Position numbers: made by a program
In this document: positions 21,544-24,500 of the stretch, piece after piece
Layout: the number at the start of each line of letters is the position of its first letter
Position numbering within the stretch: the stretch's first letter is position 1
Assembly (NCBI RefSeq): GCF_055900595.2
Contig: NZ_CM148325.1
Length of the DNA stretch: 64,000 nt
Strand: one strand, 5' to 3'

Positions 21544-24500
21544 TAATAATGCTACGCCTGTAAAGCGCACTGGCAGTTCCCTCTCCCCTCTGGGGAGAGG
21601 ATTAGGGTGAGGGGCGCAAACCCGCTCCGGGGCCATTAATTACCCTGAATTTGATTATTTACACCACGGTAACAGGAACAACATATGCAGTTTGACTGGA
21701 GTGCCATCTGGCCTGCCATTCCGCTTCTGATTGAAGGTGCCAAAATGACCCTGTGGATTTCGGTCCTCGGTCTAGCTGGCGGCCTGGTGATCGGATTGCT
21801 GGCAGGTTTTGCACGCACCTTCGGTGGTTGGATATCCAACCACGTCGCGCTGGTCTTTATTGAAGTGATCCGCGGCACACCTATCGTCGTCCAGGTGATG
21901 TTTATCTACTTCGCCCTGCCGATGGCGTTTAACGACTTACGCATCGACCCATTTACTGCGGCGGTGGTCACCATCATGATCAACTCCGGCGCATACATTG
22001 CGGAAATCACGCGTGGTGCGGTGCTGTCTATCCACAAAGGTTTCCGTGAAGCAGGACTGGCTCTCGGCCTTTCACGTTGGGAAACCATTCGCTACGTCAT
22101 TTTACCGCTGGCACTGCGCCGTATGCTGCCGCCGCTGGGTAACCAGTGGATCATCAGCATTAAAGATACCTCGCTGTTTATTGTTATCGGCGTGGCGGAA
22201 CTGACCCGTCAGGGGCAAGAAATTATTGCCGGTAACTTCCGCGCCCTTGAGATCTGGAGCGCCGTGGCGGTGTTCTATCTGATTATTACCCTGGTGCTGA
22301 GCTTTATTCTGCGTCGTCTGGAAAGAAGGATGAAAATCCTGTGATTGAATTTAAAAACGTCTCCAAGCATTTTGGTCCAACCCAGGTGCTGCACAATATC
22401 GATTTGAACATTGCCCAGGGCGAAGTCGTGGTGATTATCGGGCCGTCCGGTTCCGGTAAATCGACCCTGCTGCGCTGCATCAACAAACTGGAAGAAATCA
22501 CCTCCGGCGATCTGATTGTCGATGGCCTGAAGGTTAACGATCCGAAAGTTGACGAGCGCCTGATTCGCCAGGAAGCGGGTATGGTGTTCCAGCAGTTTTA
22601 CCTCTTCCCGCATCTGACGGCGCTGGAAAACGTGATGTTTGGTCCACTACGCGTGCGTGGCGCGAACAAAGAAGAGGCGGAAAAACTGGCGCGTGAGCTG
22701 CTGGCGAAAGTCGGTCTGGCAGAACGTGCACATCACTACCCTTCCGAACTTTCTGGTGGTCAACAGCAGCGTGTGGCGATCGCCCGCGCGCTGGCGGTGA
22801 AGCCGAAAATGATGCTGTTTGATGAACCGACTTCCGCTCTTGACCCGGAACTGCGCCATGAAGTGCTGAAGGTTATGCAGGATCTGGCTGAAGAAGGGAT
22901 GACGATGGTGATCGTGACACACGAAATCGGTTTTGCCGAGAAAGTCGCTTCGCGCCTGATCTTTATCGACAAAGGCCGGATTGCGGAAGATGGCGATCCG
23001 CAGGTGTTGATCAAGAACCCACCGAGCCAGCGCTTGCAGGAATTTTTGCAGCACGTCTCTTAACTTCTCAGCCTCCCTTTCTTCCGAAAGGGAGGCACAC
23101 CAGATTCCTCTCATTTAAAATCGCCCCTCCCCCAGCATCTATACTTATCTTTTTGCTCTGTTTTCTCACTGGAGGAGTCATGCGGTGGATCCTGTTCATC
23201 CTCTTCTGCCTGCTGGGCGCACCTGCCCACGCGGTATCCATACCCGGCGTTACAACCACAACGACAACGGACTCAACGACTGAACCGGCCCCGGAACCGG
23301 ATATCGAACAAAAAAAAGCGGCCTATGGCGCACTGGCGGATGTGCTGGATAATGACACCTCGCGTAAAGAGTTGATCGACCAGTTGCGCACCGTCGCCGC
23401 GACGCCCCCTGCGGAACCCGTACCGAAGATCGTGCCGCCGACGCTGGTTGAAGAGCAAACCGTGCTGCAAAAAGTCACCGAAGTCAGCCGCCATTATGGT
23501 GAAGCCCTTTCCGCCCGCTTCGGACAACTTTATCGCAATATCACCGGCTCCCCGCATAAGCCGTTTAATCCACAAACCTTCAGCAATGCGCTGACCCATT
23601 TTTCAATGTTAGCGGTATTAGTGTTTGGTTTTTACTGGCTGATTCGCCTGTGCGCGCTGCCGCTGTATCGCAAAATGGGCCAGTGGGCACGGCAAAAAAA
23701 TCGTGAGCGCAGTAACTGGTTGCAGCTTCCGGCGATGATTATCGGGGCGTTTATTATCGACCTGCTGTTACTGGCACTGACATTATTTGTCGGTCAGGTT
23801 TTAAGCGACAACCTGAATGCGGGCAGTCGCACCATCGCTTTCCAACAAAGTTTGTTTCTCAACGCCTTTGCCCTGATTGAATTTTTCAAAGCCGTACTAC
23901 GCCTGATTTTTTGCCCCAACGTGGCGGAGCTGCGCCCGTTTACGATTCAGGACGAAAGCGCCCGTTACTGGAGTCGTCGCCTGAGCTGGTTAAGCAGCCT
24001 GATTGGGTATGGTCTGATTGTGGCTGTGCCGATTATCTCTAATCAGGTGAATGTGCAAATCGGTGCGCTAGCGAACGTCATCATTATGCTGTGCATGACC
24101 GTCTGGGCGCTGTACCTGATCTTTCGTAATAAAAAAGAGATTACGCAGCATTTGCTCAACTTCGCGGAACACTCGCTGGCCTTTTTCAGCCTGTTTATTC
24201 GCGCTTTTGCGCTGGTGTGGCACTGGTTGGCAAGCGCCTATTTTATCGTGCTGTTTTTCTTTTCGTTGTTCGATCCGGGCAACAGCCTGAAATTTATGAT
24301 GGGTGCAACGGTACGCAGCCTGGCGATTATTGGTATCGCCGCGTTTGTTTCCGGTATGTTTTCCCGCTGGCTGGCGAAAACCATCACTCTCTCGCCACAT
24401 ACTCAGCGTAACTATCCGGAGCTGCAAAAACGGTTGAACGGCTGGCTTTCGGCGGCGCTGAAAACGGCGCGTATTCTGACAGTCTGCGTGGCGGTAATGT

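What the first reader, a model, noticed from the sequence alone, without database searches (positions are those of the whole stretch)
21579..21616. GC-rich perfect palindrome in the glnH-glnP intergenic region
ccctctcccctctggggagagg followed by attagggtgaggggcg forms a strong hairpin between two genes of one operon. It could act as an attenuator or mRNA stability element, and it resembles a dispersed intergenic repeat class in E. coli.
Basis: seen in the sequence. Interest (0 to 1): 0.3.

Follow-up and report, generated by a model that had tools for sequence, protein, structure and literature searches.

The report
BoxC repeat hairpin after glnH
This is one copy of a short repeat (BoxC) that is already known to be scattered through E. 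coli genomes; it lies between two genes of the glutamine-transport operon, and its hairpin sits exactly where published RNA mapping places an end of the glnH message, so it is ordinary but probably helps the cell keep more binding-protein message than transporter message.

Summary
The sequence is real and lies where reported. A perfect 9-bp inverted repeat (21580-21588 / 21592-21600, 3-nt loop, -18.3 kcal/mol) is followed by ATT and AGGGTGAGGGG, in the 138-nt glnH-glnP spacer of E. coli.

It belongs to the described BoxC / PIT / TMECO repeat family. It is 34/36 identical to four canonical K-12 copies, and E. coli genomes hold a median of 15 related places. One base (GGGAGAGGA) makes it fail the published search pattern, so it is missing from the 23-copy list I could check. 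The trailing G-block is the family's third, triplex-forming block and is not part of the hairpin.

Published Term-seq data list a strong RNA 3' end 4 nt after the hairpin (K-12 847,200 minus strand = window 21604). Four other BoxC copies, in either orientation, also have 3' ends just after their hairpins.

Nine related spacers from other enterobacteria each carry a different, non-homologous hairpin of about -20 kcal/mol at this site. There is no U-run.

Best reading: the hairpin blocks exonucleases and defines a stable glnH-only transcript, separating it from the GlnZ-repressed glnPQ part. Any effect on expression is untested. The kind of element is known, and interest is low to moderate.

The parts
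20800..21546 (+). glnH (periplasmic glutamine-binding protein), upstream cistron; the end coordinate includes the stop codon
   Evidence: ORF list. RefSeq annotation of the identical K-12 locus.
21565..21578 (+). Left flank of the BoxC element (GCGCACTGGCAGTT)
   Evidence: Other type-A copies in K-12 carry similar flanks, e.g. GCGCACGGACAGT upstream of the adk-hemH copy. The similarity is moderate and the boundary is approximate.
21579..21588 (+). Block 1, C-rich (CCCTCTCCCC). Positions 21580-21588 form the 5' arm of the hairpin.
21589..21591 (+). Hairpin loop (TCT in this strain). It reads TAT in K-12-type genomes and GCC in a third common haplotype.
21592..21601 (+). Block 2, purine-rich (GGGGAGAGGA). 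Positions 21592-21600 form the 3' arm of the hairpin. The A at 21601 replaces the family's consensus G, and this is why the strict TMECO pattern fails.
21602..21604 (+). Second loop, TTA (marks the 'type A' subfamily). A21604 corresponds to the Term-seq RNA 3' end at K-12 position 847,200 on the minus strand.
   Evidence: Holder 2015 definition of type A. Adams 2021 Supplementary file 1. Coordinate mapping through and the 61-nt sequence string.
21605..21614 (+). Block 3 (GGGTGAGGGG), the third strand of the potential purine-motif intrastrand DNA triplex. It lies downstream of the mapped RNA 3' end, so it is absent from the stable glnH transcript.
   Evidence: In about 1,000 E. coli genomes this block reads GGGTGAAGGG.
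21615..21621 (+). Right flank, CGCAAAC, shared with TMECO no. 17 (lldD-trmL copy)
   Evidence: The boundary is approximate.
21662..21679 (+). Conserved block CACCACGGTAACAGGAAC, which includes the glnP Shine-Dalgarno sequence. It is the region where the sRNA GlnZ pairs to repress glnP. This is context, not part of the repeat.
   Evidence: The block is conserved in all Enterobacteriaceae spacers examined. Walling 2022 and Miyakoshi 2022 place the GlnZ target at or just upstream of the glnP SD. I did not read the exact paired nucleotides.
21685..22344 (+). glnP (permease), downstream cistron

Best explanation
The element is a full-length, slightly diverged copy of the BoxC repeat of E. coli, also described as the PIT element and the TMECO triplex motif. 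It is fixed in the glnH-glnP spacer of essentially all E. coli.

Proposed mechanism: in the glnHPQ transcript, the C-rich block 1 and purine block 2 fold into a 9-bp hairpin with 8 G-C pairs (-18.3 kcal/mol). This hairpin does not terminate transcription in the canonical way, because no U-run follows it. Instead it stops 3'-to-5' exonucleases. Once the downstream glnPQ part is cut or decays, for example after the sRNA GlnZ pairs at the glnP ribosome-binding site, trimming halts 4 nt past the stem. That leaves a stable glnH-only mRNA. The expected result is more binding-protein message than permease/ATPase message, and glnH insulated from GlnZ-driven decay.

The third block (GGGTGAGGGG) belongs to the repeat's DNA-level identity, the triplex-capable motif. 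It is not needed for the RNA role.

Shown:
- family identity;
- the hairpin;
- the mapped RNA 3' end;
- conservation within E. coli;
- replacement by other hairpins in related genera.

Inferred:
- exonuclease blockade rather than termination;
- the link to GlnZ;
- any effect on protein ratios.
For: Identity:
- 34/36 identity to four canonical TMECO copies.
- Flanks shared with other type-A copies.
- Median of 15 related places per E. coli genome.
- The literature equates TMECO with PIT and BoxC and gives BoxC as 56 bp with 32 copies.

RNA role:
- Adams 2021 Term-seq lists a curated 3' end at 847,200 (minus strand), which is the A of TTA, 4 nt after the stem. Read counts are 30,332 and 130,459. 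The entry occurs three times, matching the three condition sheets.
- Four other BoxC copies have 3' ends 2-8 nt after their hairpins, two of them exactly 4 nt. They are the ppiC-side, lldD, yjbD-side and cstA-ybdD copies, in both orientations.
- No T-run and no terminator-like call at the element.
- No Rho termination region is listed in glnHPQ.

Selection on a hairpin at this site:
- The copy is present in 5,410 of 5,426 genomes, including genomes with only 1-5 related places.
- The three major haplotypes (2,361 + 1,567 + 1,003 genomes) all keep both stem arms. They differ in the loop, and one has a broken third block.
- Nine orthologous spacers each carry a non-homologous hairpin of -19 to -24.5 kcal/mol. 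Each beats 97-100 of 100 shuffles. They come from an albertii-like Escherichia and from Klebsiella-, Enterobacter-, Pseudescherichia-, Kluyvera-, Salmonella/Citrobacter-cluster and Serratia-type contigs.

Operon context:
- GlnZ represses glnP by pairing near its SD.
- In Salmonella, a GlnZ pulse lowered glnP and glnQ more than fourfold; the paper names only these two genes of the glnHPQ operon among the 12 genes down more than fourfold.
Against: - Hoyne and Maher, as summarised by Holder 2015, found no promoter or terminator activity for PIT elements and no effect on RNA polymerase. Holder 2015 found no positional or functional bias among TMECO copies.
- A mapped 3' end shows that such RNA molecules exist. 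It does not show that the hairpin changes half-life or protein output.
- Any stable hairpin in a transcribed spacer would produce such an end, so the observation fits a neutral passenger equally well.
- The variety of hairpins in other genera could mean only that this spacer tolerates insertions of palindromic repeats.
- Within-E. coli variation amounts to about four substitutions, none in the 18 stem positions. The chance of that is about 0.05, which is only suggestive, and the haplotypes are phylogenetically structured.
- The Yersinia spacer (35-36 nt) has no hairpin.
Confidence: 0.6

Rival explanations
1. Neutral passenger. The BoxC copy inserted into a tolerant spacer early in E. coli history and drifted to fixation. 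The hairpin yields an incidental RNA 3' end with no consequence for glnHPQ expression.
For: - It is a dispersed repeat with no reported function in gene expression.
- Copies occur in both orientations and in every kind of intergenic context.
- The site also holds REP/BIME-type repeats in other genera, as expected of a permissive site.
Against: - The copy is retained in 5,410 of 5,426 genomes, although other copies vary from 1 to 30 per genome. Holder 2015 reports TMECO loci as unusually variable.
- The stem is intact in all three major haplotypes while the loop and third block change.
- Nine lineages hold hairpins of nearly the same strength.
Confidence: 0.25
2. Transcriptional attenuator. The hairpin, or the G-rich tract behind it, makes a fraction of RNA polymerases stop between glnH and glnP. 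Fewer transcripts then reach glnPQ.
For: - There is a strong Term-seq 3' end 4 nt after the stem.
- In Kluyvera and in an unnamed relative, the corresponding hairpin is followed by a T-rich stretch.
Against: - The E. coli hairpin has no U-run, and the scan calls no terminator there.
- PIT elements showed no terminator activity in the earlier study, as cited.
- No Rho termination region is listed in the operon.
- The same 4-nt offset appears at copies in the opposite orientation, where the downstream sequence differs. That fits trimming to a stem better than a sequence-specific stop.
Confidence: 0.1
3. DNA-level element. In single-stranded DNA the three blocks fold into a purine-motif intrastrand triplex that stalls polymerases and promotes local rearrangement. 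The RNA end is a side effect.
For: - By my own pairing of the three blocks, this copy can form 9 contiguous perfect triads (C:G*G, T:A*T, T:A*A), using the rules quoted and the sequence.
- Oligonucleotides of the family form triplexes in vitro by CD and NMR, and TMECO loci are more variable than controls.
Against: - In vivo DMS footprinting gave no sign of a stable triplex.
- This locus is among the most stable: 5,410 of 5,426 genomes carry it, flanked by identical GlnH and GlnP proteins in all four strains checked.
- About 1,000 genomes carry a G-to-A change inside the third block while keeping the hairpin.
- Purine-motif triplexes do not form in RNA, as stated in the introduction of Holder 2015.
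Confidence: 0.08
4. G-quadruplex switch. The G-runs of blocks 2 and 3 fold into a quadruplex that competes with the hairpin.
For: The family consensus GGGAGAGGGTTAGGGTGAGGG has four G3 runs with 3-nt loops.
Against: - In this copy the runs are 4, 2, 3 and 4, so a three-tetrad quadruplex is not possible.
- The authors of Holder 2015 read their NMR imino spectra of family oligonucleotides as a well-defined triplex; a quadruplex would give far fewer imino signals.
- The stable RNA ends before block 3.
Confidence: 0.02

Closest known systems
BoxC repeat = PIT (potential intrastrand triplex) element = TMECO triplex motif of E. coli (Bachellier et al. 1990s; Hoyne and Maher 2000/2002; Holder et al. 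2015, PMC4666352)
   Same: - Same three-block order and spacing.
- 34/36 core identity to four K-12 copies.
- Type-A TTA second loop.
- Left and right flanks shared with other copies.
- Intergenic and multi-copy.
   Different: - The last base of block 2 is A rather than G, so the literal published search pattern does not match. The copy is absent from the 23-copy table and from the supplement I could search.
- Position 6 of block 1 is T, which removes the internal mismatch found in most type-A copies.
- Unlike most copies, it is nearly fixed across E. coli.
REP/BIME elements in intercistronic spacers of binding-protein transporter operons (malE-malF, hisJ-hisQ), which stabilise the upstream mRNA segment against 3' exonucleases (named from my own knowledge of that literature, not read here)
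   Same: - Position directly after the periplasmic binding-protein gene.
- GC-rich hairpin without a U-run.
- An RNA 3' end at the foot of the stem.
- Related genera carry REP-type palindromes at exactly this site.
   Different: - No sequence similarity to REP.
- It has a third G-rich block, which REP lacks.
- No associated transposase or binding protein is known for BoxC.
SroC, an sRNA released from the gltI-gltJ spacer of the glutamate/aspartate ABC-transporter operon
   Same: It is a stable RNA species with a 3' end in the spacer between a binding-protein gene and a permease gene. Its 3' end appears in the same Term-seq tables.
   Different: SroC is a defined Hfq-dependent regulatory RNA. 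There is no evidence that the glnH 3' segment acts as an sRNA.

Membership tests
BoxC / PIT / TMECO repeat | Three blocks in the order C-rich 9-10 nt, loop of 3-6 nt, purine-rich 9-10 nt, loop of 3 nt, second G-rich 9-10 nt | tested here: met
   CCCTCTCCCC / TCT / GGGGAGAGGA / TTA / GGGTGAGGGG at 21579-21614. The prose definition in Holder 2015 allows one mismatched base pair in the stem.
BoxC / PIT / TMECO repeat | Literal search pattern CCCTCNCCC N3-6 GGGNGAGGG N3 GGGNGAGGG. This is an operational filter of one paper, not a biological definition. | tested here: not met
   The window has no match on either strand. Block 2 ends in A (GGGAGAGGA). The pattern relaxed by that one base matches the window-type copies and the K-12 copy. 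The same paper describes 'degenerated TMECO sequences' at homologous loci.
BoxC / PIT / TMECO repeat | Sequence homology to accepted members, flanks included | tested here: met
   34/36 identity to TMECO nos. 9, 16, 19 and 22, and 32-33/36-37 to most other type-A copies. The left flank GCGCAC.GG.CAGT and right flank CGCAAAC are shared with other type-A copies.
BoxC / PIT / TMECO repeat | Dispersed, multi-copy, intergenic | tested here: met
   Median of 15 and maximum of 30 related places per E. coli genome; other copies align to query positions 20-56. 23 strict copies are tabulated for K-12, all intergenic. This copy lies in the glnH-glnP spacer.
BoxC / PIT / TMECO repeat | Potential to form a purine-motif intrastrand triplex (at least 8 triads) | tested here: met
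   Pairing the three blocks by hand gives 9 contiguous perfect triads and one broken terminal triad (sequence, rules). Whether the structure actually forms cannot be tested with these tools.
REP / BIME | Similarity to the REP consensus palindrome (GCCGGATG...CATCCGGC type, with a conserved 5' tetranucleotide) | tested here: not met
   The E. coli element shares no such sequence. REP-type palindromes do occupy the same site in the Enterobacter-, Pseudescherichia- and Salmonella/Citrobacter-cluster contigs. I recognised these by eye against the consensus as I remember it.
Intrinsic (Rho-independent) terminator | GC-rich hairpin immediately followed by a U-run | tested here: not met
   The hairpin is present, but the tail is AUUAGGGUGAGG. 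The scan reports no terminator-like site on the + strand in the spacer.
Canonical G-quadruplex motif | Four runs of at least 3 G separated by short loops | tested here: not met
   The runs in this copy are 4, 2, 3 and 4.
Any Rfam family | Score at or above the family's gathering threshold | tested here: not met
   The best overlapping hits are Antizyme_FSE at 17.7 bits (threshold 40) and whalefall-1 at 15.2 bits (threshold 37), both with E above 1.

The most novel reading that the evidence does not exclude
BoxC elements may be a second class of dispersed '3'-end cassettes' alongside REP. On this reading their hairpin sets a stable mRNA 3' end a few nucleotides downstream, in either orientation. 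That role was missed by the studies that looked only for promoter, terminator or triplex effects.

At glnH-glnP the cassette would uncouple glnH from GlnZ-triggered decay of glnPQ. The site would be under selection for 'any hairpin of about -20 kcal/mol', refilled in each enterobacterial lineage by whichever palindromic repeat family is active there.
Probability: 0.35. Interest if true: 0.45.

Novelty: already known. Interest (0 to 1): 0.25.

Why it matters
The repeat family has been catalogued for about 30 years, yet the papers I could read assign it no function. Two things would give BoxC its first concrete cellular role:

- At this operon and four other K-12 loci, the BoxC hairpin coincides with a mapped mRNA 3' end.
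- Related bacteria keep a different hairpin of the same strength at the same spot.

That role would be to define and protect mRNA ends, as REP elements do. It would also explain how glnH can stay expressed while the sRNA GlnZ shuts down glnPQ. For genome annotation, the finding shows that strict pattern searches miss functional-looking copies of this family.

Tried and rejected
- **Rfam scan of 20400-22400 at E up to 10.** Only chance-level hits over the element.
- **Copies within the 64-kb window.** None besides this one.
- **Genome-contig scan.** I obtained K-12 copies by coordinates from the published table instead.
- **G-quadruplex idea.** Raised after seeing G3N3G3N3G3N3G3 in the Archangium copies. 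Rejected for this copy because its runs are 4-2-3-4, the published NMR favours a triplex, and the RNA ends before block 3.
- **Insertion into an ancestral hairpin.** I considered that BoxC had inserted into the loop of a hairpin still visible in the albertii-like spacer. The MAFFT alignment of the central region is not convincing. The 'GGCAGT' I had taken for an ancestral arm is in fact the conserved left flank of BoxC.
- **Vestige of an inverted partner.** I considered that the downstream TTACCCTGA is a remnant of an inverted type-B partner. This is not supported, because CCCT-TGATTATT is also native flank in the albertii-like contig.
- **Literature searches.** Three searches were swamped by unrelated 'box C', 'BIME' and 'IRU' word matches or found nothing.
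- **Independent 3'-end data sets.** No supplementary text is held for Dar and Sorek 2018 or for the 3'-UTR valve paper.
- **Annotation.** RefSeq and NC_000913.3 carry no feature at the element.
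Full report
**The observation**

The window is E. coli. The order rhtA-dps-glnH-glnP-glnQ-ybiO follows from the ORFs and from the RefSeq annotation of the near-identical K-12 locus. 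glnH is 20800-21546 and glnP is 21685-22344, both on the + strand, with a 138-nt spacer between them.

The perfect inverted repeat is CCTCTCCCC (21580-21588) and GGGGAGAGG (21592-21600) around a 3-nt loop. As RNA it folds at -18.3 kcal/mol. The following ATTAGGGTGAGGGG does not join the hairpin.

Folding energy alone is unremarkable for such a composition (z from -0.1 to -2.4). The composite patterns, however, have zero expectation in shuffles of the window.

**What it is**

A blastn search of 21560-21645 against 5,426 complete E. coli genomes found the glnH-glnP copy in 5,410 of them. It also found a median of 15 related places per genome (range 1-30). The other places align only to query positions 20-56, which is window 21579-21615. 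The element is therefore a dispersed repeat of about 37 nt.

A literature search led to Holder et al. 2015 (PMC4666352). That paper describes exactly this motif as TMECO, with the pattern CCCTCNCCC N3-6 GGGNGAGGG N3 GGGNGAGGG. It equates TMECO with the BoxC repeat of the 1990s and with the PIT elements of Hoyne and Maher. Another paper lists BoxC as 56 bp with 32 published copies.

The window copy is 34/36 identical to TMECO nos. 9, 16, 19 and 22. I fetched the K-12 copies by coordinate. Aligning them shows that the similarity extends into a left flank (GCGCAC.GG.CAGT) and a right flank (CGCAAAC, shared with no. 17). The full BoxC unit therefore spans about 21565-21621.

Two substitutions separate the core from the commonest type-A sequence:
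- T instead of G at core position 6. This removes the internal mismatch of most type-A copies.
- A instead of G at the last base of block 2. This breaks the terminal triad and makes the literal published pattern fail.

Accordingly, the copy is not among the 23 tabulated K-12 copies. Neither glnH nor glnP occurs in that paper's text or in the part of its supplement held here, which was cut when stored. Neither RefSeq record annotates anything there. Rfam has no family for it.

**What the three blocks mean**

In the published model, block 1 and block 2 form a Watson-Crick hairpin. Block 3 folds back antiparallel on the purine strand to give a purine-motif intrastrand DNA triplex.

According to Holder 2015, oligonucleotides of the family do this in vitro. 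In vivo DMS footprinting did not detect the triplex. Purine-motif triplexes do not form in RNA.

Pairing the blocks of this copy by hand gives nine contiguous perfect triads. It is as triplex-capable as the canonical copies.

**Evidence for an RNA role**

Supplementary file 1 of Adams et al. 2021 (PMC7815308) holds curated Term-seq 3' ends of MG1655 in three conditions. It lists an 'orphan' 3' end at 847,200 on the minus strand. The surrounding sequence is ACACCTGTAAAACGCACTGGCAGTTCCCTCTCCCCTATGGGGAGAGGATTA|GGGTGAGGGG. The read counts I could see are 30,332 and 130,459, and the entry occurs three times. In the same sheets the dps terminator at 848,340 has 89,018 and 681,605.

The table's strings are 61 nt long with the 3' end at position 51. 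I checked this on the sgrS terminator. With the element at 847,191-847,225, this places the end on the A of TTA. That is 4 nt after the last paired base and corresponds to window 21604.

Other BoxC copies in the same table behave alike:

| K-12 position | Copy | Orientation | Distance of 3' end from hairpin |
|---|---|---|---|
| 3,959,467 (-) | downstream of ppiC | forward | 4 nt |
| 3,781,065 (+) | primary end of lldD | reverse | 4 nt |
| 4,231,270 (-) | downstream of yjbD | reverse | 2 nt |
| 632,098 (+) | between cstA and ybdD | reverse | 8 nt |

The element has no T-run, and the consensus scan calls no terminator there. No Rho termination region is listed in the operon. Earlier work, as cited by Holder 2015, found no terminator activity for PIT elements.

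The offset is similar in both orientations, whatever sequence follows. That fits exonucleolytic trimming that stops at a stable stem better than a sequence-specific stop.

**Comparative evidence**

I retrieved orthologous glnH-glnP spacers through GlnH homologues. Most organism labels come from the protein clusters and are approximate. The flanks are conserved: the end of glnH with its stop codon on one side and CACCACGGTA(A/T)ACAGGAA before the glnP start on the other. The centre differs in each lineage:

| Lineage | Content of the spacer centre |
|---|---|
| Albertii-like Escherichia (glnH 92% nt identity) | REP-like hairpin |
| Salmonella/Citrobacter/Kluyvera-cluster contig | two REP-type palindromes |
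| Enterobacter-cluster and Pseudescherichia contigs | one REP-type palindrome followed by a T-rich stretch |
| Kluyvera | two hairpins, the second followed by T-runs |
| Klebsiella-cluster, an unnamed contig, and Serratia | other, unrelated hairpins |
| Yersinia (35-36 nt spacer) | no hairpin |

In nine spacers the best 40-nt hairpin is -19 to -24.5 kcal/mol and beats 97-100 of 100 shuffles. I recognised the REP-type palindromes by eye from the published consensus as I remember it.

**Variation within E. coli**

Exact-match counts of the 56-nt core plus flanks give three main haplotypes:
- TAT loop: 2,361 genomes.
- TCT loop, as in this window: 1,567 genomes.
- GCC loop with GGGTGAAGGG in block 3: 1,003 genomes.

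All three keep both stem arms, and the third has a damaged third block. Minor variants change run lengths.

That amounts to four substitutions, none in the 18 stem positions. The chance of this is about 0.05, and the haplotypes are not independent, so it is only suggestive.

The near-universal presence of this copy contrasts with two other observations. The total number of related places varies 30-fold among genomes. The published conclusion is that TMECO loci are unusually variable.

**Operon context**

Two papers show that the sRNA GlnZ, made from the glnA 3' UTR, represses glnP by pairing at or just upstream of its Shine-Dalgarno sequence. This explains the conserved 3' block of the spacer (21662-21679). 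In Salmonella a GlnZ pulse lowered glnP and glnQ more than fourfold, and the paper names only these two genes of the operon among the 12 down more than fourfold. A protective hairpin between glnH and the GlnZ site would allow exactly this uncoupling. That link is my inference.

**Conclusion**

The feature is a known kind of element in the best-studied bacterium. One correction is needed: the trailing G-block is the third block of a triplex-capable motif, not part of the hairpin.

I commit to the exonuclease-barrier model at 0.6. The main rival is a neutral passenger whose hairpin incidentally marks an RNA end (0.25). Attenuation, DNA-triplex and quadruplex roles at this locus are less likely.

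The modestly new points are:
- BoxC hairpins coincide with mapped mRNA 3' ends at five K-12 loci.
- This intercistronic site holds a hairpin of about -20 kcal/mol in every Enterobacteriaceae lineage examined, although the hairpins are unrelated.

Noticed in passing
It returned 120 loci with 154 copies of GGGAGAGG-N-GGGTGAGGG, all with the E. coli architecture (CCCTCTCCC-loop-GGGAGAGGG-TCA-GGGTGAGGG). Of these, 43 fit the strict TMECO pattern. There are two loop subtypes, and inverted pairs lie 60-100 bp apart as in E. coli. Holder 2015 lists Myxococcus xanthus with 1 copy and a maximum of 143 in any genome. How one 36-nt motif comes to be amplified in such distant phyla is unexplained.
   Followed up: partly
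K-12 loci L153, L155, L159, L160 (lldD-trmL, ilvC-ppiC, cstA-ybdD, rluF-yjbD spacers): Four further BoxC copies have published Term-seq 3' ends 2-8 nt after their hairpin, in both orientations of the element. This suggests a general property of the family that the papers I read did not report.
   Followed up: partly
window about 20747 (53 nt upstream of the glnH start at 20800): The same Term-seq resource lists an RNA 3' end at K-12 848,057 (minus strand), inside the glnH 5' UTR. This could be premature termination or a processed leader fragment.
   Followed up: no
window 20434-20469: A sub-threshold Rfam hit to ctRNA_p42d (26.9 bits, threshold 50) turns out to be the dps intrinsic terminator: a hairpin followed by TTTTGTTTT, with a Term-seq 3' end at K-12 848,340.
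   Followed up: partly
window 21328-21636, minus strand: A 102-aa ORF runs through the repeat and reads ...APHPNPLPRGERE... It lies antisense to the 3' part of glnH (up to 21546) and to most of the spacer and is almost certainly spurious. Translated BoxC copies could seed false 'hypothetical proteins' of this kind.
   Followed up: no
window 21662-21679: The block CACCACGGTAACAGGAAC is conserved in every Enterobacteriaceae spacer examined while the rest of the spacer turns over. It matches the published location of the GlnZ sRNA target at the glnP ribosome-binding site.
   Followed up: partly
K-12 loci L154, L156, L148, L146 (pstA-pstB, yihS-yihR, gcvP-ygfF, adk-hemH spacers): Several canonical BoxC copies also lie between genes transcribed in the same direction, including between pstA and pstB, two genes of another ABC-transporter system. 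The glnH-glnP position is therefore not unique in the family.
   Followed up: no
L139 (JM109 'plasmid unnamed1', 29,809-29,845): The few BoxC places on E. coli 'plasmids' include this one, upstream of yagE next to ISEc19. It is chromosomal CP4-6 prophage-region DNA carried on an F-prime, not evidence that the repeat rides on mobile elements.
   Followed up: partly
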